DNA from: Craspedostauros australis
Taxonomy: Eukaryota
Length of the DNA: 33,632 nt
Assembly: GCA_030167865.1 (NCBI GenBank)
Contig: JALAGF010000339.1
Location: 1 to 33,632, forward strand
Direction of reading: 5' to 3'
This document shows positions 12,326 to 32,009 of this stretch, piece by piece (positions within the stretch are counted from its first letter, which is position 1; each line of letters starts with the position of its first letter). The position numbers and the translations under genes were made by a program. Below the pieces are notes generated by a model, which ran no database searches, was not told the origin of the DNA, and saw only the letters and a program-made list of their open reading frames with translations.

Positions 12326-13823
12326 GGACGTGGAACAAATCGCGTTGCAAGCCAGTGTTGACAGCACCGCATGCGCTGCCAAGTCGATTCCTTGACTAGA
12401 CTATTACTCGAATGCTGACGGTATTGAGCTCCACGACCCGACGAACCAAGAGCACTGCACGAGGTATAGCTATAGTGCGTTGTTGGTTCCCAGAAGGTGC
12501 AACAAGCGCGTCCTGCTCTATTGGTAATGTACCAATAGTATGCGATGCGAGGTGCTGGATACGAGGTACAACAACGATTGAGATGGTTGTGCCGTTGCTG
12601 CGTGGTGTCCAAGACGAGTGGGATGTGACGCCAAAGTGGAGCGCAACAGTGCGGGGTGAGGAACTGCTTGCGTCGTTGTGGCTCTTGTGTGTTTGTGTTG
12701 GTGAGACTCAGCGTCCAAGTGAATCGCGACTTTACGAGGATGTATGTATGTAGGACTGAGCGCGTTGTGCGACTCCAGAGCGTTCGTAAGGTTCGAAGTA
12801 GCGTCTGCGTCCCTAAGTGTGGGACAGTGTGTTGCGGTCTGGTACAAGTACGACTATGTACCTTACTCTCGTACACTTCAGTGGACTGCTTCTGCTGGTA
12901 GGGTCTTCCGGCCAGGTTCCGCAAGCGCGCGCTTCTTGCGTTCTGCTTCCGCAGCACCTTGCCATCGATTTAGTTTGATTTGAGTCGGTATCCCTTTCTT
13001 CCCATCAGTCCCACACAGACGGCATGCACTCTATCAAACCATGTACTCTATCAAACCATACACACACCCAAAGCTCTCTCGTTGCTGGTGGTCACTCCAA
13101 CGCCCGTGCATGGCTCTTTGCCCTTCATCTCCCCATTCGGCTAATTGCGGGTTCCCTACTTTTCGTCGGACTATTTGTTGAAGCTGCGAGGGGCAGTACC
13201 ACCGCTACGAGCTTGCGGGAGTACTACGTTTGGTACTCTGTGCCGAACACATGAAACAACGCGTGGCTTCGTCCACGCTTTGGTCATTGCGACAGCCCTT
13301 TGTGCACATAGTCCAACTTTTCGTGCGAACATTTCGGTTCACGGCGGAGAACACGGAATCAGTTTCTGAAATCTCAAACAGTGTTTATTTGGGTGTTGCG
13401 GTATATTATAACAATTACTAATTTGATGTCTGTATCCAACTTGTCCCACACAGAAGAAGAAGCACAACAACCGAAAAGCGCACAGCGCCAGTCAACTATC
13501 GTCACTCGCAGAATGTCGCGAATACCTCAATTGTCACGATGATGTCAACGAACGCGAACGATCACGAGAACAGAGAGATGATGTTTCTGTTTCTGCATCT
13601 CTGTCTGACAGAAACCAAGGCCACACAGATAATAGTATGGATGCGAGGTGGAGCACGGAGCCGAATGATCCATGAGCATAGCAACAGAAAGCGGAAGTTC
13701 TACACGAGTCGGTGCAGAGACAAGTGGTACCCACTCTTCGTCGCGAAATCCAGGTTGCACAGAAGAGAGAGAGATCCGCACACACATACACAAGAGGTGG
13801 CAACGCCGAAAGGATTTGTGACC

Positions 13824-14257: not shown

Positions 14258-15631
14258 CTACTCGTTGTTCCGCCGTTTGCGACGACTGCCAAAGTCGCGG
14301 ATCAGATCGTGCACGATGAGTGATGACGATGCTTGTGATGACGATGACGAAGACAATGACAGTGAATGATTGTAGAGCGACGTGATGATGGATTCTTCAT
14401 CGTAGCACAAACCGAGGTAATCCGACTGCGTGTTTGGCAACTTCGATTGCGCCAGTATCCAATCCAGATGGTTGTAGAACTCTTCGATCAGGTACTCCAT
14501 CTGCTGCGGTCTGGCCAGGATGAAGCCGGCGCGGTACTCCACGTAGGAATGGTTGAACCTCATGTAGGACGGTCTCATCCAGACGTGATCGTCGTCGACG
14601 CGGTTGTCAGGCCAGGTCTGGATGCCCCTGTTGACGCCGCGGTTGGCAAGCAACGTCGCGTCCAGCCAGACGATGTACTTCCAACCAGGATGCTTGTGTC
14701 CCAGCTCCGCCATCTGCTGGAGCCGTTGCAGTATCTGCCGCATCATCTCGAATTTGGATATCCAGATATTGATGACATTGGTCCAACCATCCAGCGCCTC
14801 CTGCGTGTTGTCAGCATGCGCTCTTGGCAGGTAGCCAGACTGTTTTTCCACCCCCTCGAACGTCTCCTGTCTTCGTGACGGCGGTGCCATCTGACACAGC
14901 TTGACCAGATCACGCGCACGCTGCTGTTGCAATGATTCGAACTCCGTGGGCAGGAAGGTGAACTTTTCTGGTTTCAAGTGCTTGCGTATGGCGCCCCAGT
15001 ACACACTATCATCGTCGATGTCAGCTTCAGCTTCACCTCCGGCCCCAGCCTCGGTACCAATGCCACTAGCCATGCTATCGTCTGTGCTGTTCTCAAGGTT
15101 GTGAAAGTAGTACACGTGCTGGAATTGGCGCAGGTACCGCATGGTGGTCTTGAGACCCTTCTTGAAGTAGCCAGGTTGGTGCTTGGAGTTGCCTCGAATG
15201 TGGAAGAATCCAGTGACGACGATCGTTTCGTTCATGATATCTTGGAATCGATGTTGCGTTGAGGGATGGTCTGGATCGATGGTGAATCGGGGCAGTATGT
15301 GCGATGCTGGTGTGAGCATCGGCCGCTGCTGCTCTCCATTTCCACCTTCAGATGAAGCTGCCGTGCTTGCACTCGTAGCTGGTGCATGAAGAGCTTGCAC
15401 GCTGACTTGTCTTTCATTGCTTCCCATCCGCGGTTGCTGATCCGCCGAGTCTTGCATCAGCGCATTCTTCCGAGTCAGCACATCAAGCTGCTTCATTCCC
15501 TTGCCGCTGTTCCAGGCAGCGACGATCGTCACAGTGAGGCAAAAGAGGAGGCTCTTCGAACGCAACAGCCAGTTCAGCGATCGTCGTCTGCTCAACGTGT
15601 GCCTTTGCATGACTTCCATGGTGCTCTTCAT
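14258..15631 (-). CDS. Type II membrane protein with HtrL/YibB-like (putative glycosyltransferase-related) domain
   Basis: Long single-exon ORF, first ATG at 15631. Basic N-tail, TM (LLFCLTVTIVAAW), stem, then motifs IVVTGFFHIRGNSKH, IWISKFEMM, YIVWLDA, RAGFILA and YDEESII in the order I recall for HtrL/YibB-like proteins. The CDS is well supported; the family call is tentative. Confidence 0.7.
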   Translation of the reverse strand: MKSTMEVMQRHTLSRRRSLNWLLRSKSLLFCLTVTIVAAWNSGKGMKQLDVLTRKNALMQDSADQQPRMGSNERQVSVQALHAPATSASTAASSEGGNGEQQRPMLTPASHILPRFTIDPDHPSTQHRFQDIMNETIVVTGFFHIRGNSKHQPGYFKKGLKTTMRYLRQFQHVYYFHNLENSTDDSMASGIGTEAGAGGEAEADIDDDSVYWGAIRKHLKPEKFTFLPTEFESLQQQRARDLVKLCQMAPPSRRQETFEGVEKQSGYLPRAHADNTQEALDGWTNVINIWISKFEMMRQILQRLQQMAELGHKHPGWKYIVWLDATLLANRGVNRGIQTWPDNRVDDDHVWMRPSYMRFNHSYVEYRAGFILARPQQMEYLIEEFYNHLDWILAQSKLPNTQSDYLGLCYDEESIITSLYNHSLSLSSSSSSQASSSLIVHDLIRDFGSRRKRRNNE

Positions 15632-16393
15632 GTCGATGGACGCCAATGCTGTTGTTGTGAATGCTGTTGTTATTAATAATATTGCATAATACAACACAAT
15701 ACAATGTTATGGATGTCACAACTGATGTTGTTGTTGGATGTTGATTGTGCTCGTATGTGTTCGAATCACAACTCTCTCTCCCTGTCTTCACTGGTTTGGT
15801 TGCGCTCTTCAACTTCGCACACCACCAGCAACAAGCTCACTCAGTTTGAAAATGGCGGCAAACGAATGCAATGGTTTCGGAATGGTCCACGTTAGCGATT
15901 GCCATGTTTGATGTAGTACACGTAATCGTGACAGGCAAAACAGTAACAGAAACCGCGACACGAAATGTCAGCGCCGTTCACGAATTCTCGCACACTCTTC
16001 CGTGTGATCTGTTTGCTTTGACTGTTTCTGTCCTCGGGCAAAAGTGATGTTCGGAGATCGGAATCACGAATACATAGGGACGTCGGAAGCCCAGTGAGAG
16101 ATCAATTGGGTTGGTCTTCGTCCTCAATGACATTTATCCGAATAGAATCTCCGGCAAAGACGGTATTGACATTGAGGTTGGTGTATTGTAGATAATATTA
16201 ATTTACCGTAGATCCGACGAATAACATCAACGGTCCACATTGTTGCCGCAATCGCCGATTTTTTCATGATGTTGCATGCATTGTTGGGAGAATCTTGGGC
16301 ACATCACCAACGAGTATCATTGTTGTTGGTTGTGGGTGGCCTGTTCAAGCCGTTGTGCACACCAGATTCCGACACCCACTTTAATCTACCCGA

Positions 16394-16428: not shown

Positions 16429-16494
16429 GAGTATTATCTCTCATCAACGTTGGCATCTCTGTCGTCACCAACAGAGTGATCGCAAGAGGGAAGG

Positions 16495-17856
16495 ATGGCC
16501 ATTACACAACGCAGAAAGACCGATCCACCGTCGAACGCATCTTTGGAGACGTTGGAGCTGCCATCGAATCAAAGAACGCTGCCAAGGCACGATGATGGCG
16601 ACAAAGCAAGACGATCGGCCAACCCAACCAAAAGCAGCCATGGCGGCAAATGGGCGTGCATACTGGTGGTCGCCTTTCTCGTGATCTGCGCCTTCGTCAC
16701 CTCTGGGTTGCTCCAATTTGGAGGCGGCAGCAACAAGAACCAGAATGGAGGCGTCGCAAACAGCCACCACCATGACCAACAGACGAACAAGCTCCACCAT
16801 GATCCCGATCGCGAATACAGGAAGCGCAAGATGTCGCGAGTCCACGACGCCGATGACGAAGATGAGGATGGCAATTCGGTGGAGGTGAAGGAAAGCGGAG
16901 AAGACAAGGAAGAAGACGAAGAAGACGAGACGGAACTGGAAAATCAAAAGCACCAAGCCAATGACGCTTCTGACGCCGACGAAGCCCATAGAAGCAATGG
17001 AGGAAGTGGAACCAACGAGGCCAATCAACAAGGAGGAGATGAGGACGATGATGGAGATGAAAAGGATCACCTGCAGTGTGCTGGTTACAACACCATCGAT
17101 GATCTCACCGAGCCGGAGCTGTACCCATGGAAAGGTAGCCGGCACATGGTCACGCCGCCCAAAGGCGGCATGTACACTCTGGTGTGCTGCTCCACCACCA
17201 AAGGCCCACTGTCCATCGCCGTCCATCACAAATGGGCACCGCTTGGCGCGCAACGCTTCGTGGATATGGTCACCTCTGGTTACTTCCAATCCGTTCCCTT
17301 CATGCGATGCATGGAGGACTTCCTGTGCCAATTCGGAATCTCCGACAGCGCCAAGAACAACAACGTGGACCATCCCGAATTTCAGGAGACCATCCGCGAC
17401 GACCCGCCGTGGTTGCCATCCAACAAGGGACGCGACCAACATGGCGTTGCACGATTCGCGTACGGGTACATGGCCTACGCTGGAAATGGCACGAACTCGC
17501 GGGACAAGCAGGTCTTCGTGACGTTGGATGACAGTTCCTTCCTGGGCGGCACGGACGAGAGTCCTTGGGAGGTGCCGTGGGGCGAACTGGTGGGCAAACA
17601 TTCCTACGAGACCATCGAGCAGATCTACACGGGGTACGGTGACGAGTACCCGGATCAAGAGGATTTGGAGGAGGACGGCATGACGGAGGAAATGCGGCAG
17701 CAATACCCTCTGATGGATTACGTCCAGAAGTGCCAAGTCTTGGACATCCGGGTTATCGGAGAGAAGGTCTCCTCCAACGAAGATGAAGAGGACAAAAGCA
17801 ACATGGACAGCGACGACAAAAGCAGCAAAACTGCCCGTGATGCCGTCGAAGAGTGA
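16495..17856 (+). CDS. Membrane-anchored cyclophilin-type peptidyl-prolyl cis-trans isomerase, 453 aa
   Basis: N-terminal TM (WACILVVAFLVICAFVTSGLL) and an acidic stalk, then a cyclophilin core: STTKGPLSIAV...WAPLGAQRFVDMVTSGYF...FMRCMEDFLCQFG...GYMAYAGNGTNSRDKQVFVTL...VPWGELVG. Confidence 0.9.
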   Translation: MAITQRRKTDPPSNASLETLELPSNQRTLPRHDDGDKARRSANPTKSSHGGKWACILVVAFLVICAFVTSGLLQFGGGSNKNQNGGVANSHHHDQQTNKLHHDPDREYRKRKMSRVHDADDEDEDGNSVEVKESGEDKEEDEEDETELENQKHQANDASDADEAHRSNGGSGTNEANQQGGDEDDDGDEKDHLQCAGYNTIDDLTEPELYPWKGSRHMVTPPKGGMYTLVCCSTTKGPLSIAVHHKWAPLGAQRFVDMVTSGYFQSVPFMRCMEDFLCQFGISDSAKNNNVDHPEFQETIRDDPPWLPSNKGRDQHGVARFAYGYMAYAGNGTNSRDKQVFVTLDDSSFLGGTDESPWEVPWGELVGKHSYETIEQIYTGYGDEYPDQEDLEEDGMTEEMRQQYPLMDYVQKCQVLDIRVIGEKVSSNEDEEDKSNMDSDDKSSKTARDAVEE

Positions 17857-17974: not shown

Positions 17975-20092
17975 CTAACTGTACCAAGCAGATATCAACG
18001 AATCAGACGCAGTGGCATTCCCAGCATCGGCTTGCCTTTTTTCTGCGCCAAAATGATGATGGCCGTCAACGTGCAGGCGTTCCAAGTTGTATGGCAGAAC
18101 CGCAGCCATATGCTTTTCGTTGGGCGTAGACGACAGCCGCCGTCGTTTCGTTGGTGGCACTGCTGGCCGGCTTTCACTGTGGAGATTGATGTGGATGTCT
18201 CTCAGATCTCTCAGCTCCTGCGACAGCTTGGATGACAGGCCCTGCACGAGCTGCAGTTGCGCTTCATAGCGCCCCGCCCGTCCATCATCCCAAATATCAA
18301 CCAGCATCTTGTTGAATCGATTGAGTATCTCGTACATCAAGGTTGGTCGATTGCGCACTGTATTGCTGGACAGCAGCTTCCCGAACAGCGCATGCGATTG
18401 AATGCTGGCGAACAGCGTTGCCAACACCAAGACGTAGTTGCGGATCGCGTTTTCTCGTAGGATGCGAGGGGCGTGGGCAGAGTAGTAACGATCATCCAGG
18501 ATGCCACCTGGTATGGAGAGCTCCATGAGAGAGTGGTTGTCGGACAGAGCGGCGACCACCGCTGCCGTAGCAGGTTCTCTGTCAGCGAGAAGAGCATGGG
18601 CGGTGGTGGTGGCGGCCCTGGCAGTACTGCCATTGGTGTTGCCTGCTCCGTTGAAGACGCGAGTGCGGCCGTTGCTGACATGGCTTCGTCTCCGGGCTCG
18701 GGCCGAACCTGCTCCGTTGGCATTGGTCGACGTTGCTGCAGTTGGTGGAGAATCAGAAGCCCCGACCGTGTAGTTGATCTTGACCAAGTGTTTTGCCCGT
18801 ATCAGCATGAGCAATCGATCCAGCCAATTTCCCGCCTCCGCGTTGCCGCTGAGCGAGAGCTGCTGGATGTGAGGATTGGCAACGACTGCGCGGATGATCC
18901 TGTCGATGCTGCCCGTCCTGCTTCCGACGAAAGCCAGGCTCTCGATGCCAAACGCACGCACCGTGTGCATCGTCTGCATGGCGCGCACCAGGTGATCGGC
19001 GTCGATTGTGAGACAGTTGAGGTGGAGCTCGCGAAGGCGGCACGTGGTGCGCACAAGCTGCTCGCAAAGGGCACGGCCGTCATCTTGAAATCTGCACCGG
19101 CTGATTGATAAGGACTGTATGTTCTGGGCCAGCCACTCAGACATGGCGGGGTCGATGACATCGCAATTTGACAACGAGAGCTTGCGCAGCTGGGTCTGAT
19201 GCTGCCGCAGCGCGGTGTACATTGGCTTCCACAAGCAGTCCTTTCGGATCACGCATTCTCTGTGGCCGTGTTCATGGGCATGGTTGTTCATGTGGCCTTG
19301 GCCTTGGCAATAGGGATGGGAATGGCAATCATCACTTGCGTGACCGCGGCTGTGGTTGTAAGCTGACTCAAGGCAGTCGTATGCGCCCATGCTTGCACTT
19401 GCGCTTGTACTTGCACTCTCGCCTGTATCCATGTCTGCTGCTGCACTGGTATGGGAGTTGCGGGAGCGCCGAGGCTGTGTTGCAAACAGGCGCATCAGGA
19501 AGCACAACTGCAGTTTGCATCCATTCTCGCCAACGTACCTGGGATCAACGTGGATCCGGACTCCATTGAGATCCATCTGTGGCAAGAGCTTCATGTTGGT
19601 GAGAGATTCGCGATGGCACAGCCAGAAAGGCGTGACGAAGAGGCACTTCCAGCGTCGCACCAGCCGTTCCAGCTGCGACCACTCAAAGTCCACGCCCTCA
19701 TCCATGATGCGGCTGCCAACACATTGGCTTGGACTGCTGCCGTCGGCACCAGGACGAGCATCGGAGCGCTGCTGCGCCTGATCGAGCATCTGCCAATCAC
19801 GCAACCTCATGGGAAGCATCCTCGATCTCCTCGTCTTCTTCCTGCAGCTGTCTGGAGTGTACGGAGGCCCTCCCAACGGTTCGTATTCCTCCACGATCAT
19901 CTTCCACAGGGTTTGGAACTGGTAGTCCGAACGCAGTTTACGGGCCTTCGACGGCTGCGGCTGTTGCGGCTGTTGCTTCTGATGCTTGCGTTGGCGATCG
20001 CCAGGCTCTGGCTGTTGGCTCTGCTTGCCGAGTGGCGCGCCCACCGTCGCCATTGCTCTTGGCATCGACGCTGTCGCCTTGGTTGGTCCCAT
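17975..20092 (-). CDS. Hypothetical protein with RNI-like leucine-rich repeats
   Basis: ~705-codon open frame containing LRKLSLSNCDV, IQSLSISRCRF, LRELHLNCLTI, IQQLSLSGNA and ALSDNHSLMELSI, ending in the RILRENAIRN cap seen in diatom LRR proteins. First ATG is at 20092; an upstream exon cannot be excluded. Confidence 0.75.
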   Translation of the reverse strand: MGPTKATASMPRAMATVGAPLGKQSQQPEPGDRQRKHQKQQPQQPQPSKARKLRSDYQFQTLWKMIVEEYEPLGGPPYTPDSCRKKTRRSRMLPMRLRDWQMLDQAQQRSDARPGADGSSPSQCVGSRIMDEGVDFEWSQLERLVRRWKCLFVTPFWLCHRESLTNMKLLPQMDLNGVRIHVDPRYVGENGCKLQLCFLMRLFATQPRRSRNSHTSAAADMDTGESASTSASASMGAYDCLESAYNHSRGHASDDCHSHPYCQGQGHMNNHAHEHGHRECVIRKDCLWKPMYTALRQHQTQLRKLSLSNCDVIDPAMSEWLAQNIQSLSISRCRFQDDGRALCEQLVRTTCRLRELHLNCLTIDADHLVRAMQTMHTVRAFGIESLAFVGSRTGSIDRIIRAVVANPHIQQLSLSGNAEAGNWLDRLLMLIRAKHLVKINYTVGASDSPPTAATSTNANGAGSARARRRSHVSNGRTRVFNGAGNTNGSTARAATTTAHALLADREPATAAVVAALSDNHSLMELSIPGGILDDRYYSAHAPRILRENAIRNYVLVLATLFASIQSHALFGKLLSSNTVRNRPTLMYEILNRFNKMLVDIWDDGRAGRYEAQLQLVQGLSSKLSQELRDLRDIHINLHSESRPAVPPTKRRRLSSTPNEKHMAAVLPYNLERLHVDGHHHFGAEKRQADAGNATASDSLISAWYS

Positions 20093-20267
20093 CCCTCCAC
20101 TCGTTCCGAACACGGTGATGTTCAGCGTATTCTGATGTATCGTGGTATCGTTGATCCCTCGTCAACGGCATCCAAAGTCGTGCGAACGCGGTATTGCCAT
20201 GGACATGAGTGTCAACTCTGGCGCATCAAGAGAGCCAAAAGCAGCGGCTGAAACAAGCGGCCACCAC

Positions 20268-20705: not shown

Positions 20706-23700
20706 CTACCGCTTGATTTCGCCCCTGTACTTCCCCAAGTACGTCTGGACCGTCTCTTCTCCCCTCGATTCCCATTCGCGACGGTTGGCGAGAGCGTAGT
20801 TGAGGTACTCATCAGAACTCACGCCGAAGACGCCGCATTCCCTCAGCTTTTTGGCAAGCGGGATGATGTAGAAATCGAAGAACGACAACTCACCTTGGTA
20901 CCATCCCAGCAACGGGTCCGTCTCGGACCTACCTTCCTGATACGCGCGGTACATCTCATGGAACAACCGTTCGTTCCATTTCAAATAGATGTGCCAGTGC
21001 TGCATCGTGTGGGCGACGTCCGATGCCTGGATCAGATGTTCGATCACGATGGTCGCCATGCGATTGACTGCGATCTGGTCCACCGGTGGCATTGCCGCTT
21101 CAGCTGCCTCGTCCTGGCTCACCCCGCTAGACAGAGATTCCAGGCCACCCATGATCTCCAACGATCTCCGATTGATGTTGGCATGCAGCGATCGTCGTTG
21201 GTCGAACGACTTTATCCAGCGCGCCTTGCGCACGGATCCCAGCTCCTTGTCCATGATATCGGTGGCGAGCACCATGTTCACCATCAGCTGTCGGAAATGA
21301 TTCAGCTCGTGGTCGTCCATGTAGATGCAATCCCGGAAATCACTGTAACTCTCATCCATCAGCAAGTCCCATGCCAAGTCCAATGAATTCTGCTCCGCCA
21401 CGCTCTTGTTGTTGTAGGTCTGTGCCACGCGGGTGTTCTCCTTCACAAGCTGCGAATTGGGAACGCCATGATGATCGATGTCATGGATCAACGCAGCCAG
21501 GACGCAGCTGAATTGCGTGATGGGATCGGACGTGATGCCGTACGTGAATGCATGCAGCATCTGATCGGACTGTTCCTTCTTGTACTGCATGGCCTTGTAG
21601 TCGATGGTGTCCTTCGTCACGACGCGTGACAGCAGCTTCATCGTGGATTGGACGACGTGGCTGGCATGGGAGAAGTTGTGGAATGGATTGTCACGGTACA
21701 TGCTGGCGATTTGGCGCACGAAGTCTTCCACCTGTTCTCGGACCTTGCCATCCAGCTGGATGGTGGCCGGGTCGCGCAGGTACTGCGATGTCTCGCTTGG
21801 AAATTCGATGGCTTCCTCCAATTCATCGAACGGGGTTCCTGCGACGGTTGGTTGCCATCTGGGAGTGCCTCCATCTGATGACCCCGGGTGAGTGCTGCGA
21901 CGGCCATCCTTTTGATCATCAGCAGGCGGACGCATCGCGACGATCCGTTTCAGCATGGTCAGCAGCGCATCAACGTTCCACTGGATCTCCAACTCCATCA
22001 AAGATACCTGTGTATGCAAGCGCGATCGTCTGCGCCGTTGTGACGATGGCTTCTTCGTGGCAGGCGCCTGTGATGCGGCCTCTTCGATGATGCTGTCGTA
22101 CTTTTCCGTTTCCGTCGCGCCTGTCCCGGCGTGCTCCTCCAAATTCTTCTCGCGCACCTCGCCGACACTACCAACTCTGGCAAAGCCATCGCTGTCGCTA
22201 TCGGCATCGACCGTGGCACCATGACAATAGCTTCCTGACTCATCCCCGCCATCGCTATCAGCGACAGCCTCATCGCGCCGGTGCTGCTGAGCGTGAGCAG
22301 AATTGGAATTGCTGCTCCAAGTGTCCTCCGTAATCGGGTTCCTTGCAGGCGTTTGCACCCAGAATGTGCTGAGTGTCCCCTTCCCTTTGGCGACGATGGC
22401 ATCCCTTCTTGGGATCACCCAGTCCGTTTTGCCGGACGTGACCAGCGCATCCGCAGTCTCTTGGGAGATGTGGATTTCACCCGGCTTGCCGGTTTGCTCC
22501 ATCCTGGCGGCCGTGTTGACTGTGTCACCAAAGAGCTGGAATCGCGACTTATCGCCGCGCAGCACTCCGGCCGTGACGGGTCCAGAATGGAGGCCGATTC
22601 GTATCGACAGATCTTTCGTGCCTGGGCCGAGTGTCATGCACAATTCATGGAGGACCGATTGGAGCTTGATCAAACAACCCTTCGCGAAGCGTGCCATCAC
22701 GACGGCATGGTCTGCTCGTTGTTCGGGAAGCCCAGTCGCCGCGACATAGCAGTCGCCGATGGTCTCCACCTTGAACACGCCCAGCCGGCGAGCCATGCGG
22801 TCGAAGGAATTGTACACTGTTTCCAGCAGCTCGAATACTTGGGAAGGTTCTCGGATGCTTGCCCACGCTGTTGGGTGGTTGGGACGTATGAGAGGGCATT
22901 TGCAAGCGATAGATGGCAGTTGGTGAGTATAATGTTGAGCATGAAGTCCTGGACAAAGGATACTCCGCGGGCGGACAGCGCTATCAGATTACAACGACGA
23001 AGGCTCTGGGCATGAGAGCCAGAGAGGTATGCCCATACCGCCTTCCAGACTTGCAGTCGTCAGACCATGACTTACCCGTGAACCCCACGATATCAGCAAA
23101 CAGGACGGTGACTTGGGGAAACAGGTCCGCGATTGGCTTGGCCTTGAAGGGTGGTCCCGATCGAATCTGATCTCCACCGGCTTGCATCCCCACCACCTGA
23201 TCTGCGGCGGCACTAGTGCCACCAAAAGCCGCAAGTGCTTGACTTGCACCGCTCTTGCGTCTTTGCTCCGAGTTGCCCTCGTCGCTGCCGTCCTCATTCA
23301 TGAGCCGGTCTCGCACGTTGTCCGGGAACAGGGAGTTCACGATTGTGCTGGACCGCGTTGCGATCTTCATCACCTTCGATTGCCGGCTCTCCACCATGAT
23401 ATCGTACAGAATGAACACGAAGGTCGTCAACACGAAGGTCAGGACGACCGTGATGGTGTTGATGATCGGTTGGTTGGTGTGATACCGCGAATGGAACGCC
23501 TTCGTGGGATGGAGATGGAGTGTGTACTGGCATGCTTCCAAAGTCCCGAAACGGTCAAAGTCTGACATCACCTCCAGGTCATCCTCCGAAACATGCAGAT
23601 CACCGTTGCCCAGGAAGGTTACTTCCGGTCCATCGATTCGAAACGTGATGACGCCGCCGCACGTGCTACGCACCACCAGGTAAACTCCGTCGATACCCTC

Positions 23701-25470
23701 CGGGATGAGATCATGGAAGTACCCATGCCACGGCATGTCACCCGTGATCATCCCCACCATGTCACCGACGCTTTGCTCGTCTTTGCTGAACTTGAGCGTG
23801 CGCCAAATGGGCGTGGCCATTGTGCTTGAGGGCCATGTCCGACGATCGGCCGTAACTTCTTGTTCGTTGCTGAGCGTGAAGTTGGAAAGCACAGTTGCTC
23901 TGATGGCCTTGACGCGTTCGTGTTCAATGGCTAGGTATGGCCGATCCAACACGTTGAAATTCACGGATGGTGCTTGCTGGAGGATTGGTGATATCTGTGC
24001 CAACGGTAGGAAGTATTCCATCTCCTCTCCGTTGCTGTTGCCATTGATATTGCCGGTTCTCAGAGTGGCTGTTTTGGCTGCTCGTTCAGGCACATTGGTT
24101 TCATCGTGTCGATCGAAGATGTACGGGGTTATGGAAGAGTCGACAGTATCAAGTGCCGCTTGGATCGTTGTGGCAGAGTCGCCCTCGTGAGAGAACTTGA
24201 CGGCATCCTCTATCCACTCTCGATTGTTCAGCTGAAACTGCTCGAACTCGTCTCTCTCGTCAATAGGAACCAGCTGCGTCAGACCGACGAATCGAGTCTC
24301 CGTGAAGTCCATCATGTCTCGGGAAAGACCTTCAAATCCTGCCACAATCACTGAGGGCCACGCTTCGACATCCGATGCAGCCGTGATGTGCAGGCTCATC
24401 GTCTCGTAGGCCTGGACGACTGCTTCTGCATTGAGCTTGGACACGGCGATGATCTCATTGGCGAAGTCATTGAACTGTTGATGTTGTTCATGTTTATATC
24501 GCAGAGAGATATGCAAAAGTACCGTGATGGATGATGGGTGACGAAGTATGTCGCGTTGCGGTTGCGATTTGGTCCGAAGAATGATGCAGCAATGGAGAAG
24601 TTGTGAGATTCGTTTGCGTTGACAAAACGGTTATTGGGAACGAATGAACCGTCCTGCGGCGAATTCGATTGGAAGCAAAAAAGACAGATTTTAAAGCCCG
24701 TTTCTTGTGCCGTTTGTGATCACTCAGCAAGAAATGGCGTTGGTGAAACAAAGAAATAAGCTGCCAAGGACACGACAACGAACCCAACAGACTTCACACG
24801 AGCGTCACCAAAACAGGAATTGCGGCTTTGAACAAGTCCAATTCTGCAGGGGCCTCAAGATCAACGACACTTTTGCTCCGAGTGATGGTTCCAACACGAT
24901 CGGTGAATTGACAAAGGCAATGACCCAAATGCGAATTGTCATGACAACCATCGTGGCATCGGTCATGGGCGACCAACGGATTCCAAATCAACAGGAGCTG
25001 CTGATGCGCATCGCATCATGCTCCGCGCTCGTAACTCCATCAGCACTCACCCTCGTTTCGTACGCCTCTTCATCGTCCGATGCTGATGCTCGGTACACGC
25101 CGTATGCGCTGAGGACGGCCGCGATGCACAGTACCAAGAACACCAGCCCTTTCGAGAATGTGAGGTACTTCGTTTCCTTCCTGGCAAAATCGTCGCCCGT
25201 TGTCTTTCGTGCGCTCCGTGATGACATGAGCTTGCCGCTCCTGTTGCTGTTGTTGCTTCGAGAGCTGTTGCCATCGACACTGTTGGTGCCAATTGCTTCT
25301 GATGTGATGGATTCCATTGAAATCGGGCAAGTTGAATCGAGGCGTCCGCCGCCGCTGTTTCTGTGCTTGCTTTGGCCGTATTCGTCCTTGAAGTTGCTGT
25401 TGCATTTGCTGTCGGCTTTGCTCTTGGTTCCGGGGGATGATTCCATCGAATCGAAGCTGAAACTGCTCAT
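20706..25470 (-). CDS. Receptor-type bifunctional guanylate(-like) cyclase / cyclic-nucleotide phosphodiesterase, copy A (TM-CHASE-like-TM-cyclase-PDE), 3 exons, 1326 aa
   Basis: Exons 25470-25051, 24474-23076 and 22867-20706 (420+1399+2162=3981 nt), GT-AG introns. TM1 GLVFLVLCIAAVLSAYGVY; TM2 IINTITVVLTFVLTTFVFILY. Cyclase motifs: VTVLFADIVGFT|AW, FKVETIGDCY, RIGLHSGPVTAGV, RFQLFGDTVNTAARME. PDE motifs: NPFHNFSHASHV, ALIHDIDHHGVPN, LATDI, QASDVAH. Confidence 0.93.
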
Positions 25471-26027
25471 GGTGATGGCAGGGGTTGGGTTGGAGAATGT
25501 TGCGCTGGTTGCTGCGTGGAAGTTCTGTCAACGTACGAGTACGAGTACTTGTATGCGTAGTGGCACGATGTCACCGCAGCCTTGCTTCTCTCCGAGCGCC
25601 TCCACCTGCGCAGTGTGTGAGCTGTGTGGTTCAGGGAATAGTGCTGTTGGTGGGCCCACGTTTCTGCGAGTGTTGCGTTGCGCGGACTGGCAACAAAGCC
25701 AAAGGGTGCTTCGTCTTGGAAGATGAGGTCTTCCGCAGCCAGGTTGCGTTGATGATGCAATGGATGCGCTGGAGGTTGGACTTGTGTGAGGCGCAACGTG
25801 ATGCAATCCTTGGAAACCTGATTGGTCTTACTGTGATGATCCTTCCTGTTTCTGTGATAATTATAAGGGTATGTGAAGATGGGGACTCTCCGTGGTTGCG
25901 TTGGTGTTGGTGTTGGTGTTGGAACTGTTGTCGGTGTCGATTTGAGATTGTTCTCGTTCGAATTGTGTTGTGTTGTGTCGTCGGAGGTGAGCGATCCTCA
26001 TGCAGGTTGTGACTCTCGCGAGGGCGA

Positions 26028-26082
26028 GTGTGAATGTTGTGTGTGAATGTTGTGTGTGAATGCTGTGTGTGAATGCTGTGTG
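26028..26082. repeat. 13-bp tandem repeat (GTGTGAATGYTGT)4 upstream of cyclase/PDE copy A
   Basis: Units at 26028 and 26041 are GTGTGAATGTTGT; units at 26054 and 26067 are GTGTGAATGCTGT. Confidence 0.9.
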
Positions 26083-26722
26083 GCCACGCCAAAGACCGCA
26101 ACCAGCGCAGATCACACGTGTGCGCGCGCGTTTGAGTTTGTGTTCAAAATCGATGAACCAACCAGGAATTAGAATTAGTCCACCTCCATCTGCTGTGTGG
26201 CTTTGTCTTCTGTTTTCGCTCTGGTAGTTGTCTCCCCAACACGAGTACAACGAGTACCGGTGTCCGTGGTTGTGAAGGCAAAATCGCTTGTTTCCTTCCT
26301 TGGTCGTATTTGCCTGGAGAAGCGCGTGGACAGATCGCAGTTATTGTGTTCTTGGTTGATTTCAAAGCCTCATTGTGGCGTGTTGGTGTTGGCACAAACC
26401 GCATAACCCCCCTCGCGCGTCATCCACATGCGCTTTGGTTTGGCAGGGTTCTCCAATCGGGATGCACAGAGCCACGTGGCGAACAAAGACACCAAGGGTT
26501 CATATTCCCCTTCGCAGAAACCTCTCGCGGATCGCGCACGCAAAACTCTCAGGGCATGCCTGGTCGTTTAACTTTTGCCTGGTGATGCACCAAAAAGAGC
26601 CCAAGGCGTGTCCGCAGAACTGTCATACGAGTAGTCCCCAACAAAACGTCAATTGTGGCATAGCAAACCTCATCCTTCCAGGAAACGGAACGAGTACACG
26701 GCTGCCACGGCTACAGAAGCGC

Positions 26723-26747
26723 TGTTGTTGTTGTTGTTGTTGTTGTT
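26723..26747. repeat. (TGT)8 trinucleotide microsatellite
   Basis: tgttgttgttgttgttgttgttgtt in the spacer between the two cyclase/PDE genes. Confidence 0.9.
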
Positions 26748-27483
26748 TTCGTTGTTGACGATACCCCAAACCACCGAGATGTTTGATTTTGCCGTCCTTG
26801 ATGCATCTTCCTCATCATCTGTCGTGGGAACAGCACAATTGTGCTCCCGGAAAGGCAGAGTTGCTGCAATGCATTGCATGACATCGCATTTGGTGGTGCT
26901 GTCCATGGAAAGATGCATATTGATTCAACTTTACTGCTCAGCTTTCACGTTCCCGAATCATATCTGAGATCGTACTTTCCTGGATTGGAATCATCCTCGA
27001 CTACATTCTGCAACGATGACCATCGTTTCCGTTTCCTTTGCTCATCAACGAGGCTTGGTGGCGCAAAGGAGCGAAGGAGTATGAGGCTCTTTCGGTCCTC
27101 AGTGACCCACTCGTAAAGTAGGTGCTGCAATCCATAAGATCAAGTTGGTGATGCGAGAACGGAAGAGCAGAACGATAGGACAGAACAGCTGCTGCTTTCG
27201 TTTCCAACTGCCTCGCACCCGAGGTACTCTGGAGTGCTTGTATCCGTACCAACCACCCGCGCACTATTCAACTCGTATCCAAATGCATACGACCTAAGCG
27301 TATGTATGAATAATGCAAGCAACACTTGTATTCATACTTTAATGCACATAACCTCCGATGGCCAATCCAACAGACCCTGCCTCCGAGCATGTCTCTTGGT
27401 GCATTTCCTTGTCGAAGTTTCCCCACCTCCCATACTCATACGTGCTTTCCCCACGCTACGCGCTTCGTGCCCATCCACCGGTC

Positions 27484-30400
27484 CTAGGATCGGTCGTACT
27501 TTGCGAGGTAGCCCTTCACCACCTCCTGGCCTCTCATCGCCCATTCCATCCGGTTGGCCTGGGCGTAGTTAAGGTACTCGTCCGACGACACTCCGAACAC
27601 CCCGCATTCCTTCAGCTTTTTGGCCAGCGGGATGATGTAGTTGTCGTAGAAACCCAATTCGCCCTCGTACCAGTTATCTGACGGATCCTTGTCGACTCTG
27701 CCGGCAAGGTGAGCTTTGTAGATCTCGTCGAACAGCTTCTCATTCCACTTGAGGTAGATGTGCCAGTGCTGCATGGTGTGGGCGATGTCAGATGCCTGGA
27801 TGATGTGCTCGATGACGATCGTTGCCTTGCGGTTCACCTGGGTGTGTCCCTGTGGTGCCAAATGGAACCTCGAGGCGTTGATTGCGGTGTGAGCGTGAGC
27901 CTGGGCGTTGCCGCCGTTCTCGAAGAATGCCTTGTGCCAGCGAGCATTGCGCATCTGCTTTTGGTCGCCGTCCATGATGTCCGTCGCGATGATGGAGTTT
28001 ACGACCAGCTGGCGGAAGCGGTCGAGCTCGTGCTGGTTGCTGTAGATGCAGGCTCGCAGGTCTGCGTAGCGAGGTTCGAACAGCAGGCTCCACCCCAGGT
28101 CGATGCTATTCTGTTCTGCCACCGACTTGTTCTTGTAGTGCACCGCGATCTCGCGTTTCTCCTTGATCAGGGTCGTGTTGGGGACTCCGGCATGATCAAC
28201 GTCGTGGATCAGGGCCGCGAAGATACACGCGAACTGCGTGATCGGGTCCGAGGTGATGCCGAAGGTGAAGTCGTGCATCGCCTTCTGGTCGTACTGCTGG
28301 TAGTCGGTGCTGGCCTTCTCCCAGTCGATCTTCGGCGCCACGATACGTGACAGCAGCTTTCGCACTGACTGGACGACGTGGCTGGCATGGGCGAAGGAGT
28401 GGAATGGATTGGAATGGTACATCTTGGCGATGGTCTGGACGTAATCCCTGAGTTGCTCCTGGGCCGCTGTGGGCAACTGGACACCGTTGGGGTTCCTCTT
28501 GTACTTGTTCATCTTGTTGGGCAAGTGGATGATCTCCTTGACTTCGTCCAGAACTGTGCCGTCGATTTCTTCGGTGATGGAAAGTCCCCGGATGGTATTC
28601 GCGTCGATTGCCGTGCTGTGCCTCATCGCGATGATGTTCTTGAGAAGAAGTTGCAAGGTCTCGATGTTCCATTCGACATGGTGCTGGAACTCGTACTCGT
28701 GGCTTGCTGTAGCGCCTTGATCACCGAAAACGTCATCGTCGTCGTCATTGGTGACATGCTGGTCGTCATCATAGTCGTCGCCCACGATGGAAGTGGAGGA
28801 GGCGTCCTTGTTTGCAGCATCTAGTGCCAGAGCTCTGCTGTGCGAAAGGCCAGCTCGTTGACTTCTGTGCCGCACGATCTTGCCATGGGCGCTATGTGAG
28901 CTCTTGTCGATCCCAGCTCTACCACCAGAGTTGGCTGCCTTCGAAGCTGTCTTGCCTCCTTTCGATGACGGTGACGAGAGCGTCTCGACGCCGAGGTAAG
29001 TCTGGAGCTCGCCTTTGCCCTTGGCATGGACCTTTTTCGACCGCGGAGTATACCAGTGCTGCTTGCCGCACCGGGCGAGCTCATCAGCTGCCTGCTGCGA
29101 CAGCTGGATCTTGTCGGCAATTCCGCTGCTCTCCATGCGAGATGCGGTGTTGACCGTGTCTCCGAAGAGCTGGAAACGAGACTTCTCGCCGCGCAGCACA
29201 CCGGCAGTGACCGGGCCTGAATGCAGCCCGAACCTCATCCTGAGCTCGGCCGTTTCTGGCCCCAGCTTCACGGATAGTTTGGTGACCAGCTGCTTCATCT
29301 TGCTGAGGCAATGACGAGAGAAGCGAAACATGACGACTGCGTGATCGGCGCGTGGTTCGGGAAGACCGCATGCGGCAACGTAGCAGTCTCCGATGGTCTC
29401 GACCTTGAAGACCCCCAGCCCTCTGGCGAGCTTGTCGAAGGTGCCGTACAGCGCCTCGAGTAGCGTGAAGACCTCGGCAGGCTCGCGCGTGCTGGACCAA
29501 GCCGTGAAACCGGCCAGGTCGGCGAAGAGGACCGTCACAGATGGGAAGAAGTCGGCGATCGGCCGTTCTTGCAGTTCGTGGGTGTGGTCTGAGGAGCCGG
29601 AACGGGCCGCTATGCCATCAGCGATGTGAGCCGCGTATCGGTTGAGGAAGTGCTTGGGACTCTTCTTGTCCTTCTTTGGTGGCTCGCCAGCCCGATCTTC
29701 TGCATCTCCCGAATGCATCAATCGGTCTCGGACGTTGTCTGGGAACAGGGAGCTGATGATGGCGTTCGAACGGTTTGCGGAGGTGACGACCTTGAGCTGC
29801 CGCCTCTCCACGAGGCAATCGTAGAGGACGAAGACGCCGGTTGTCAAGATGAAGATGGCGACAGTAGCGAGCGTGCTGAAGAGCGGGATCTTCGTTTCGT
29901 ACGTCTTCCGGAAGGCCTTCGATGGGTAGAGGTGCATGGAGAACTGGCAATCCTCCAAGCTCCGGAAGGCTGTGAATGAGGCCTCGACCTCCAGATCACC
30001 GTACGCGTGTTGCTGGTAGTCCACCGGTCCCATGTACTGCACCCGCGGACCTTCGATCATGAAGCTGAACGACTGGTCGCACGTGTTCTTGACCACCAGG
30101 ATGATCCCCTCGATGCCTTCCGGCACCAGGTTGACGAAGAAACGGCGCCATGGCATGGCACCAACGATGGCAGCGACGATTGGATTCTGCTCCCCGTCGC
30201 GATCCATCGTGTACTTGAAGACAGGTGCTGCCATGAAGCTCTCTGGCCACGTGCTTGTATTGTTCTGTTGGTACGGACGATCCAAGTTGAGGACCTCCGA
30301 CAGAATGACTTCGCGGTTATCGATCATGTCTTGGTACACTCGCACGAAGTGAGAGTAGGCGAATCCGTCGTAGTTGATGAGATTGTATCGCCTCGCCAAT

Positions 30401-32009
30401 GGTGCGATGTGCGATGCTGGGGCCAGCAAGGCCTGATCTGCTGGCGAGACGAAGCTCCCACCATTCACAAAGTCTAGACCCCAGATTTCTGGGCGGAAAT
30501 TCAGCTCGGTCTCGGGTGGAATGTGGTTGTATTCTTTGCCCCGTTCGATCCAAATGTGAGATGAGTTTTGAACGAACTCCTCGTACGATGCCCTTTGCTC
30601 TGATGTGACGAACGGTGTCAACGTGACATAGTTCGCCCCCGTGTGGTTGATGATGGGAGCGAACTCGGCCTCGAAGTGCGGGATGATCATGTTGGGCCAG
30701 CTCTGGTCCGTTCCATCGCCATAGGCAGAGACCTGAATGCTGGCGGTTTCGAATGTTTCGAAGACATTCCTCACGTTCATTTGCGAGACCTCTACGATCT
30801 GGTTGGCAAAGTCCAAGAACTGTTCGGGATGAGGCGGCGACCGTGGTTAGATAAGGATCCGGCCAAGAGAGCAGAGCAGAAGTTAAGTGGAGTAGCGTGG
30901 CGTGGAGCGAATGTATCAGATGAGATAGGGAGACGAGAAGGAAAAGGTGGGAAGGGTGCATTGTTTTTCAGCCAACGTCAGATTCGGGCCAGGTCAGCGA
31001 GAATCAAGAAGGCACAGTACGCATACGAGTAGGGCAGAACAGGATTAGGTTGTGATTCGAGGTTTCAGGCGGGTGGATCAGACAGTTTTGGCACGAGAAC
31101 CGGAACAGCAAGTCACGCATACAGCTACTCGCGCCACACCAACATGGAGGAGGAGGATTTGCATGTGTGAACTCGAGCAAGATGAAAACCGAATCGGATG
31201 GGAATTCACACCCAGATCCGAACCGGCATGGCTGATTAACACGCGTGCTGCCAAGAGTAGTGGCCACATAGTCACTCTTTCGACAACAGTGCGCTGCGTG
31301 ACACTCTTCTGCTCTACCTTCGTATCTGTGTTGGTATGGTACTCACCCTTGTCTCGAAGTCGCCTGATTCGGTGTCGGATGTAAACCAGTACACGACCCC
31401 CGCTGTGACTCCCGTGGCTACGAGGAGCACCAAAGCCACCAGAGCCTTGGCTCCGGCCACGTACTTGGTTTCCTGCGCGTGCTCAGGGGAGCTGTTGCGT
31501 TGGGCGAAGCTGCGCCGGTTCATGTGGCCGCCAGAGATGGATGAGTTCGTGGAACCTATGGACGAGAAGTGGTTTGGGCTCTTCGAGCTCGATGGTGCGC
31601 TTGAGGCGTGGCTGTGCTTTGACGAAAACGTGCTGCCTTCCTCCATATCCTTAGTCGATCCATCTTCTTGTGACATGGATCTGGTCGGAGTCAGGAGGCT
31701 GTTAGAGCTGGACTTGGCTGGGGTGCTCTCGTTATCGTCAAGGCTGGTACCATTGACCTGAGGCACTTTCTTCTCGGCTGCGCCGGCTGGACTAGCTTGG
31801 AGGCCGCCCATCGCGTTGTGAGGGTTGATACGATTACCATGGGCATCGACGTCTCCTGGAGACCTTCCCGGTGCGTAGGCGTGGTGAACTCCGCTCTCTG
31901 GTTGGTGGACGCGTCCGAATGTGGGATCGTTACCGCTGTGCTCGTGCAGAGTATCGTCGCGATCGTCCCCATCGGTGGAAGCGTGGATATGCTGTGGATT
32001 AGGTGCCAT
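27484..32009 (-). CDS. Receptor-type bifunctional guanylate(-like) cyclase / cyclic-nucleotide phosphodiesterase, copy B (TM-CHASE-like-TM-cyclase-PDE), 2 exons, 1332 aa
   Basis: Exons 32009-31347 and 30819-27484 (663+3336=3999 nt); intron GTGAGT...AACAG joins DFETR|FLDFANQ. TM1 ALVALVLLVATGVTAGVVYWF; TM2 LFSTLATVAIFILTTGVFVLY. Cyclase motifs: FADLAGFTAW, FKVETIGDCY, RFQLFGDTVNTASRME. PDE motifs: NPFHSFAHASHV, ALIHDVDHAGVPN, IATDI, QASDIAH. Confidence 0.94.

What the first reader, a model, noticed from the sequence alone, without database searches (positions are those of the whole stretch)
20706..32009. Tandem pair of one-component 'sense-synthesise-degrade' cyclic nucleotide receptors (CHASE-like sensor + cyclase + PDE in one chain)
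Seen: two head-to-tail genes each encode a Ser-rich cytosolic tail, TM, ~320-aa extracytoplasmic domain, TM, a class III cyclase with both metal-binding Asp and the N..A.RM motif, and a class I PDE keeping the FH..H, HD.DH and SD metal ligands. Established: animals encode receptor guanylate cyclases and PDEs separately; bifunctional GC/PDE genes are known in diatoms, and as I recall one is induced by sex pheromone in Seminavis robusta, so the architecture itself is not new. Inference: each protein could be a self-limiting cNMP pulse generator or a ligand-switched synthase/hydrolase, analogous to bacterial GGDEF-EAL hybrids. I am not aware of established ligands or switching mechanisms for these enzymes.
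Basis: partly seen in the sequence, partly recalled or inferred. Interest (0 to 1): 0.8.

Follow-up and report, generated by a model that had tools for sequence, protein, structure and literature searches.

The report
Diatom CHASE receptor cyclase-phosphodiesterase pair
Two neighbouring genes each encode a membrane receptor with an outside small-molecule sensor and, inside the cell, one domain that should make cGMP and one that should destroy it; they are ordinary members of a known, greatly expanded diatom family whose ligands and enzymology are still untested.

Summary
Observation confirmed. Two minus-strand genes (1326 and 1332 aa, 42% identical) each encode tail-TM-ectodomain-TM-class III cyclase-class I PDE with intact catalytic motifs. 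The ectodomain has a CHASE fold: pLDDT 95.5, best matches AHK4 (Z 21.0) and PcrK (Z 17.9). The pair is not special. This genome gives at least 150 cyclase matches, 69 of 80 fetched loci carry all three domains, and tandem clusters recur. The topology is the published Seminavis robusta GC/PDE, and CHASE+cyclase+PDE already stands in that genome's InterPro tables. Added here: the PDE has Glu in place of the 'invariant' Gln in 73 of 80 loci. The same Glu and an adjacent pocket Leu occur in the active, cGMP-preferring choanoflagellate RhoPDE, where changing either cuts cGMP hydrolysis 30-40-fold. That favours a live cGMP PDE over a pseudo-enzyme. Sensors are far more divergent than PDEs (20% versus 54% identity). 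Best reading: a ligand-regulated guanylyl cyclase with a tethered cGMP PDE. A reciprocal switch remains unproven. The scan earlier noted a soluble GAF-cyclase-PDE fusion in another genome.

The parts
27484..32009 (-). Gene B, CHASE-GC/PDE receptor, 1332 aa; exons 32009-31347 and 30819-27484
   Evidence: spliced model without internal stops
31377..31463 (-). Gene B TM1 (aa 183-211), after a Ser-rich N-terminal tail
   Evidence: hydropathy
30820..31346 (-). Gene B intron, 527 nt, GT-AG, branch-like motif 31 nt before the acceptor; same position and phase as gene A intron 1
29890..30819 (-). Gene B CHASE-fold ectodomain (aa 222-531 part), with a conserved Cys pair
29806..29889 (-). Gene B TM2 (aa 532-559)
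28993..29547 (-). Gene B class III cyclase (D655, E695, D699, R769, Q771, N778, R782, K821)
28618..28686 (-). Gene B conserved helix-like motif ahead of the PDE, after a variable low-complexity linker
27487..28404 (-). Gene B class I PDE (H1028, H1032, H1093, D1094, E1123, T1167, D1232; pocket L1250, E1275, F1278)
20706..25470 (-). Gene A, CHASE-GC/PDE receptor, 1326 aa; exons 25470-25051, 24474-23076, 22867-20706
25081..25170 (-). Gene A TM1 (aa 101-130)
23473..24474 (-). Gene A ectodomain (aa 141-474 part), 30% identical to B's; not folded on its own
23386..23472 (-). Gene A TM2 (aa 475-503)
22353..23121 (-). Gene A class III cyclase, split by the 208-nt intron 23075-22868 (D601, E641, D645, Q717, N724, R728)
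21927..21998 (-). Gene A conserved pre-PDE helix-like motif
20709..21683 (-). Gene A class I PDE (H1003, H1007, H1068, D1069, E1098, T1142, D1223; pocket L1241, E1266, F1269)

Best explanation
Each gene encodes a two-pass membrane receptor that works as a dimer. An extracellular CHASE domain binds a small molecule (ligand unknown). The signal passes through TM2 and the helical segment behind it and changes the activity of a homodimeric guanylyl cyclase. The class I PDE on the same chain is an active, cGMP-preferring hydrolase that is tethered and largely constitutive, so cGMP stays local and short-lived. The two genes are old paralogues in a repertoire of at least about 70 such receptors that share an output module and differ in the sensor. 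Shown here: architecture, open frames, folds, residue conservation, family size. From established knowledge: class III cyclases need dimers, CHASE domains of AHK4 type bind small ligands, Glu at this site marks guanylyl cyclases. Inferred: ligand control of the cyclase, cGMP specificity, constitutive PDE activity, dimer state.
For: Ectodomain model pLDDT 95.5; best fold matches AHK4 (Z 21.0, rmsd 2.8, 238 aligned) and PcrK (Z 17.9, rmsd 3.6, 238 aligned), next 13.9; Foldseek E 1.7e-7. A Cys pair is kept in 61 and 54 of 62 ectodomains, as expected for an extracellular disulfide. The cyclase keeps both Asp, Asn, Arg and the guanine-type Glu (role of the Glu from PMC2576301 passages). PDE metal and catalytic positions are 95-100% conserved among 77 PDE-bearing loci, whereas only 17% of 307 columns reach 95%. 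Profile and fold searches both rank S. rosetta RhoPDE first, and it shares the Phe, Leu and Glu pocket residues. RhoPDE prefers cGMP 10- to 200-fold, is strongly active in the dark, and E657Q or L623F cut cGMP hydrolysis about 30-40-fold (PMC8774190 passages). The cyclase-PDE linker varies from 36 to 118 aa in the 22 sequences measured, which fits a tether. Median pairwise identity is 20.5% for 62 ectodomains and 54% for 53 PDEs.
Against: No enzyme assay of any diatom GC/PDE was found in the searched library. The second specificity residue of the cyclase is Gln (78 of 80 loci), neither the GC Cys nor the AC Asp. The PDE replaces two histidines of the second metal motif by Asn and Ser (Ser in 76 of 80 loci); RhoPDE keeps His there, so activity may be lower. 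RhoPDE ranks first only narrowly (E 8.8e-10 versus 9.6e-10 for PDE4D, about 19% identity), so it is an analogue, not shown to be a close relative. A weak predicted cyclase-PDE contact and a conserved pre-PDE helix point to tighter coupling than a plain tether. No ligand or pocket residue could be assigned.
Confidence: 0.55

Rival explanations
1. Ligand-operated reciprocal switch: the PDE docks on the cyclase dimer, so that one state synthesises and the other hydrolyses cGMP, like a regulated GGDEF-EAL hybrid.
For: Predicted complex of cyclase x2 with PDE: weak support, score 0.36 against best control 0.02, runs agreeing in at least 91% of contacts, partner pLDDT at least 80. The mark was reached by 51 of 78 solved complexes and 2 of 108 mismatched pairs, but at 0.60 or under by only 5 of the 78 and by all 4 mismatches that passed of 180. 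A helix-like motif ahead of the PDE is conserved. The fusion is kept in 76 of the 79 fetched loci with a cyclase (I chose the loci, so this share is biased).
Against: The linker is low in complexity and 36-118 aa long. The pass is of the kind that the tool calls more often wrong than right, and the job was unlike its calibration. A contact would not show regulation. The pre-PDE helix may simply complete the PDE fold.
Confidence: 0.2
2. The PDE is slow or a pseudo-enzyme that binds cGMP and feeds back on the cyclase, so the protein is a product-sensing receptor cyclase.
For: Family-wide departures from animal PDE consensus: His-His to Asn-Ser in the second metal motif, Gln to Glu, Tyr to Phe, Asn to His. 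A few paralogues have lost the metal Asp (L028, L040, L074).
Against: All direct metal ligands and the general-acid His are kept in both genes and in 74-77 of 80 loci. Glu and Phe are shared with the active RhoPDE, where Glu is needed for full cGMP hydrolysis.
Confidence: 0.13
3. The cyclase is dual-specific or makes cAMP, or the ligand controls the PDE and not the cyclase.
For: Gln at the second specificity site. The best sequence matches in the PDB are AC9, AC5 and AC8, though their scores sum two domains. The only cyclase-PDE fusion I saw assayed, CAPE, is an AC with a cAMP-preferring PDE.
Against: Glu, not Lys, at the first specificity site in both genes and 68 of 80 loci; the 3 apparent Lys/Gln cases that I checked of 10 were exon-edge artefacts. 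The PDE pocket is of the cGMP-preferring RhoPDE type. The cyclase, not the PDE, follows TM2 directly.
Confidence: 0.12

Closest known systems
Seminavis robusta bifunctional transmembrane GC/PDE family (Moeys 2016 PMC4726125; Bilcke 2021 PMC8027222; family HOM02SEM000012 in PMC7335047)
   Same: Small cytosolic N-terminus, two TMs around an extracellular stretch, then GC and PDE (passages). S. robusta Sro29_g019290 (P0060) was found by the ectodomain profile, has the same two-TM layout, the same catalytic and pocket residues (Phe at the Leu site), and 49-53% identity in the PDE region. Cyclases are tandem-enriched there too. Five S. robusta genes are annotated CHASE+cyclase+PDE in the 23 table rows I saw.
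   Different: Another genome (65.9 Mb assembly) and divergent ectodomains. Orthology to the pheromone-induced Sro991_g228730 was not tested. The main-text passages I saw do not name the ectodomain as CHASE or discuss the Glu pocket.
CHASE sensor domains of Arabidopsis AHK4 (3T4J) and Xanthomonas PcrK (6K62)
   Same: Same fold over about 240 residues, flanked by two TMs.
   Different: 8-13% identity; output is cyclase plus PDE, not a histidine kinase; no evidence that cytokinin is the ligand.
Salpingoeca rosetta RhoPDE (5VYD, 7D7P)
   Same: Class I PDE with Phe before the catalytic His, the L623-equivalent Leu and Glu657 at the purine-binding Gln site; membrane sensor-linked enzyme.
   Different: Rhodopsin sensor, no cyclase, about 19% identity, and it keeps the His residues that the diatom family replaces by Asn-Ser.
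Marchantia CAPE (PMC5159850)
   Same: Class III cyclase and class I PDE in one two-TM chain; both domains active in vitro (passages).
   Different: PDE is N-terminal and AC C-terminal with the TMs between them; cAMP-specific; single copy; no CHASE sensor mentioned in the passages seen.
Dictyostelium adenylyl cyclase G (recalled, not tested)
   Same: Two-TM CHASE sensor joined to one class III cyclase domain (recalled).
   Different: Adenylyl cyclase, no PDE.

Membership tests
Diatom transmembrane GC/PDE | Short cytosolic N-terminus, two TMs with an extracellular stretch, GC then PDE in one chain | tested here: met
   definition from passages
Diatom transmembrane GC/PDE | Homology to annotated S. 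robusta members over sensor, cyclase and PDE | tested here: met
   P0060 = Sro29_g019290: 32-34% over ectodomain plus cyclase, 49-53% over PDE
Diatom transmembrane GC/PDE | One transcript spans all domains | tested here: inconclusive
   One open frame spans cyclase and PDE; no contig laid spans both domains
Diatom transmembrane GC/PDE | Induction by sex pheromone (seen for some members) | not testable with these tools
   No expression data for these genes
CHASE domain (PF03924) | CHASE fold between two TMs | tested here: met
   Gene B model: Z 21.0 to AHK4, 17.9 to PcrK; 26 of 30 Atlas hits CHASE. Gene A by homology only
CHASE domain (PF03924) | Pfam score above the curated cut-off (25 bits) | tested here: not met
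   Gene B 17.8 bits, E 0.0029; gene A no hit; 14 of 62 family members hit at E up to 0.1, best 1.6e-6. A divergent CHASE-fold branch
CHASE domain (PF03924) | Binds a small ligand | not testable with these tools
   No ligand data
Class III nucleotide cyclase | Two metal Asp, transition-state Asn and Arg, phosphate Lys | tested here: met
Canonical guanylyl cyclase | Glu at the first specificity site | tested here: met
   A E641, B E695
Canonical guanylyl cyclase | Cys at the second specificity site | tested here: not met
   Gln in both genes and 78 of 80 loci
Class I cyclic nucleotide PDE | Fold, general-acid His and metal ligands (His, His-Asp, Asp; Glu and Thr of the second shell) | tested here: met
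Class I cyclic nucleotide PDE | Invariant purine-binding Gln of animal PDEs | tested here: not met
   Glu in 73 of 80 loci and in all 11 outside proteins, of 152 examined, that reach this site; Glu is also native to active RhoPDE
Class I cyclic nucleotide PDE | Hydrolysis of cGMP or cAMP | not testable with these tools
   Needs an assay

The most novel reading that the evidence does not exclude
This family is the main chemoreceptor repertoire of motile diatoms: dozens of divergent CHASE sensors wired to a conserved cGMP module in which the PDE docks on the cyclase dimer, so that ligand binding flips one chain between synthesis and hydrolysis. Natural Leu/Phe variants at the site that slows RhoPDE 40-fold (Phe in 13 of 80 loci) would set different pulse lengths. 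It would be a eukaryotic cGMP counterpart of switchable GGDEF-EAL hybrids and a candidate pool for the unknown pheromone receptors.
Probability: 0.2. Interest if true: 0.72.

Novelty: new member of a known kind. Interest (0 to 1): 0.33.

Why it matters
The two genes themselves are ordinary members of a published family. The family matters because diatom receptors for pheromones and bacterial cues are unknown, and GC/PDE genes respond to both (passages). Three points make it more testable. The ectodomain has the fold of small-ligand sensors, so it can be expressed alone and screened. The PDE pocket matches a characterised cGMP-preferring enzyme, which gives exact control mutations. The contrast between divergent sensors and a conserved output module suggests a receptor repertoire. 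A single-chain cGMP source and sink could also be a useful signalling tool.

Tried and rejected
Expression: no RNA holder listed. The one run offered, X1 (RNA only a guess, 0.15 of the words), holds one 1530-nt contig identical to 26866-28395, the 3' part of gene B's PDE plus 618 nt past its stop. No listed piece spans cyclase and PDE, and the joints between A and B come from short, divergent paralogue pieces, so I did not use them. Pfam on whole exons gave no CHASE hit; it appeared only on the trimmed domain. An ectodomain profile against PDB sequences gave no CHASE match; its top hit was a 26-residue repeat match that I rejected. The search for homologous proteins with the ectodomain gave only 2 proteins among 2320 candidates. 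'Recent tandem duplication' rejected: 42% identity, and in a quick tree of 53 PDE domains (the careful search did not finish) A groups with six other loci at 99 and B with three others at 86. 'Gln-to-Glu means a dead PDE' rejected through RhoPDE. 'Some paralogues are Lys-type adenylyl cyclases' rejected: both Lys cases were exon-edge artefacts. 'CHASE in these proteins is unreported' rejected: it stands in the S. robusta InterPro tables. The three identical copies of this locus (C339, C3749, C3982) were treated as assembly redundancy, not as further genes. The search for Gln-to-Glu in the PDE literature listed only reviews, which I did not open. Moeys Figure S5 is a picture; only its legend was readable, so it may already show the Glu and Gln residues. 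The S. robusta source-data file was cut when stored, so counts from it are lower bounds; bioRxiv supplements were closed.
Full report
Observation. The finding covers two intact minus-strand genes. Gene B runs from the ATG at 32009 to 27484 with one 527-nt intron and gives 1332 aa; gene A runs from 25470 to 20706 with introns of 576 and 208 nt and gives 1326 aa. All introns are GT-AG, the first lies at the same codon and phase in both genes, and the spliced frames have no internal stop. The genes are 2013 nt apart and 42% identical over 1265 columns. Each has a Ser-rich tail, two hydrophobic segments around a 320-344 aa stretch, a Pfam Guanylate_cyc domain and a Pfam PDEase_I domain. In B everything from the ectodomain to the PDE is one 1120-codon frame, and in A most of the cyclase and the PDE share a 760-codon frame, so the fusion is in the DNA itself. 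The splice sites are predictions.

Sensor. Pfam found nothing in the ectodomain when whole exons were scanned. From 80 paralogous stretches of this genome I built an ectodomain alignment of 62 sequences: the two window domains and 60 of the 65 near-complete ones found, leaving out five of the longest. Of these 62, 14 hit Pfam CHASE at E up to 0.1, best 1.6e-6; gene B scored 17.8 bits, below the cut-off of 25, and gene A did not hit. The ESM Atlas gave CHASE clusters in 26 of 30 hits. The AlphaFold model of B's ectodomain has mean pLDDT 95.5. Foldseek ranks the AHK4 cytokinin sensor (E 1.7e-7) and PcrK first, and VIA-align gives AHK4 Z 21.0 (rmsd 2.8, 238 aligned), PcrK 17.9 and the next chain 13.9. 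A Cys pair is kept in 61 and 54 of 62 sequences, which fits an extracellular location.

Family context. Searches of the own genome gave 150 scored cyclase matches of 214 candidates, 166 PDE matches and 130 ectodomain matches; these include exon pieces and duplicated contigs. Of the 80 stretches that I picked from those lists to avoid obvious duplicates, 79 hold a cyclase, 77 a PDE, 76 both, and 69 all three domains; four of the seven cyclase-PDE loci without an ectodomain match were cut short by contig ends. The 77 PDEs reduce to 74 clusters at 95% and 71 at 90% identity. Clusters of two to four genes occur on C143, C198, C1966, C4047 and C6180. In a quick tree of 53 PDE domains A and B are not sisters, so the pair is an old arrangement. 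Outside this genome the ectodomain profile matches 6761 clusters at 50% identity, 2071 at E up to 1e-30; of ten long hits looked up, two clusters carried species names, S. robusta and Stauroneis constricta.

Cyclase. Both genes keep the two metal Asp, the Asn and Arg, and the phosphate Lys; across the 80 loci these stand in 73, 76, 76, 76 and 78. The first specificity site is Glu in both genes and 68 of 80 loci. Eight Gln and two Lys readings remain; the three that I checked were exon-edge artefacts. Glu plus Cys marks guanylyl cyclases and Lys plus Asp adenylyl cyclases (PMC2576301, passages). Here the second site is Gln in 78 of 80 loci, so GTP use is likely but not canonical.

PDE. The general-acid His and the metal ligands stand in 74-77 of 80 loci (3 without a PDE match). 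They are 95-100% conserved where only 17% of 307 columns reach 95%. Four family-wide departures from animal PDEs looked at first like signs of a pseudo-enzyme: Tyr to Phe, His-His to Asn-Ser, Asn to His, and the purine-binding Gln to Glu (73 of 80 loci; 5 not aligned, 1 Asp, 1 Gln). The PDE4 numbering and the term 'invariant Gln' are recalled; the column match to PDE4B is. All 11 outside proteins, of 152 examined, that reach this site have Glu. The PDE profile and the folded model (pLDDT 88.7) both rank S. rosetta RhoPDE first, narrowly (identity of the entries), and RhoPDE has the same Phe and Glu. In PMC8774190 (abstract and passages) RhoPDE prefers cGMP 10- to 200-fold, has strong dark activity, and E657Q or L623F lowers cGMP hydrolysis about 30- and 40-fold. 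The paper's primers and the 34-residue spacing in the alignment place these at B E1275 and L1250 (A E1266, L1241). So the Glu fits an active cGMP-preferring enzyme. The Asn-Ser change is not shared with RhoPDE and stays unexplained. Phe stands naturally at the Leu site in 13 of 80 loci.

Coupling. The linker between cyclase and PDE is 36-118 aa in the 22 sequences where it could be measured (A 116, B 97), followed by a conserved helix-like motif. A predicted complex of two cyclase domains with the PDE gave weak support: 0.36 against a best control of 0.02, runs agreeing in at least 91% of contacts, partner pLDDT at least 80. The mark was reached by 51 of 78 solved complexes and 2 of 108 mismatched pairs, but at 0.60 or under by only 5 of the 78 and by all 4 mismatches that passed of 180; my alignments were not used. 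This keeps a docked switch open and does not show it.

Mechanism. Most likely (0.55) ligand binding to a CHASE dimer alters a homodimeric guanylyl cyclase through TM2, and the tethered PDE clears cGMP at once, so the signal is local and brief. Sensors diverge (median 20.5% identity, 62 sequences) while PDEs do not (54%, 53 sequences), as expected of a receptor repertoire with many inputs and one output; relaxed constraint on the ectodomain would look the same, and I did not test for positive selection. Rivals are a reciprocal switch (0.2), a slow or binding-only PDE (0.13), and cAMP or PDE-side control (0.12).

What is known. Moeys 2016 (PMC4726125; passages and supplement 1 text) described this topology, its induction by SIP+, the hypothesis of ligand activation through the extracellular domain, and tight control of cGMP by the fusion. 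Bilcke 2021 (PMC8027222; passages) found 8 such genes up-regulated. Cirri 2019 (PMC6688387; passages) linked some to bacterial exudates. Osuna-Cruz 2020 (PMC7335047; passages and supplement rows) reported tandem-enriched cyclases, and its source data annotate five genes as CHASE plus cyclase plus PDE among the 23 rows. CAPE of Marchantia is an assayed AC-PDE fusion of another layout (PMC5159850; passages). I also read passages of PMC7644710, PMC7590022, PMC13466520 and PMC12558739. I found no enzyme assay, ligand or structural account of a diatom GC/PDE, and no mention of the Glu pocket, in searches; the library lacks most subscription journals.

Verdict. What is added is a confident CHASE fold, sequence evidence that both active sites are under strong constraint, and a pocket match that predicts cGMP hydrolysis. 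Interest 0.33.

Noticed in passing
G000 C339, C3749, C3982: The gene pair occurs three times with 100% protein identity and equal spacing, most likely redundant assembly; family counts from this genome need de-duplication.
   Followed up: partly
L016:1501-3579 (+): CHASE-type ectodomain plus cyclase with both metal Asp altered (Asn, Glu) and no PDE in the fetched stretch: a likely pseudo-cyclase that could act as a partner or inhibitor subunit.
   Followed up: partly
L028, L040, L074: Paralogues whose PDE has lost the metal Asp; L074 has lost catalytic residues in both cyclase and PDE yet keeps a 1270-codon frame.
   Followed up: no
L023:533-6799 (+), L028:725-6199 (+): Very long frames (2089 and 1825 aa) with about 1000-1200 aa ahead of the cyclase that Pfam does not recognise.
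   Followed up: partly
L009, L080: Ectodomain plus intact cyclase with no PDE match in the fetched stretch; may be cyclase-only members or cut short.
   Followed up: no
13 of 80 loci, e.g. L010, L025, L027, L029, L030: Natural Phe at the site where L623F slows RhoPDE about 40-fold; several of these loci fall in one clade of the PDE tree.
   Followed up: partly
window 338-1120 (-): One frame joins TPR repeats to a Prefoldin_2 domain.
   Followed up: no
window 10763-12400 (-): Protein with two helicase-associated (HA) domains, E 1.7e-35.
   Followed up: no
window 16480-17856 (+): Cyclophilin-type domain behind a predicted membrane anchor and an acidic stretch.
   Followed up: no
window 17975-20161 (-) and 14258-15706 (-): A 728-codon frame with a weak LRR hit and a 482-codon frame with no confident Pfam match.
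   Followed up: no
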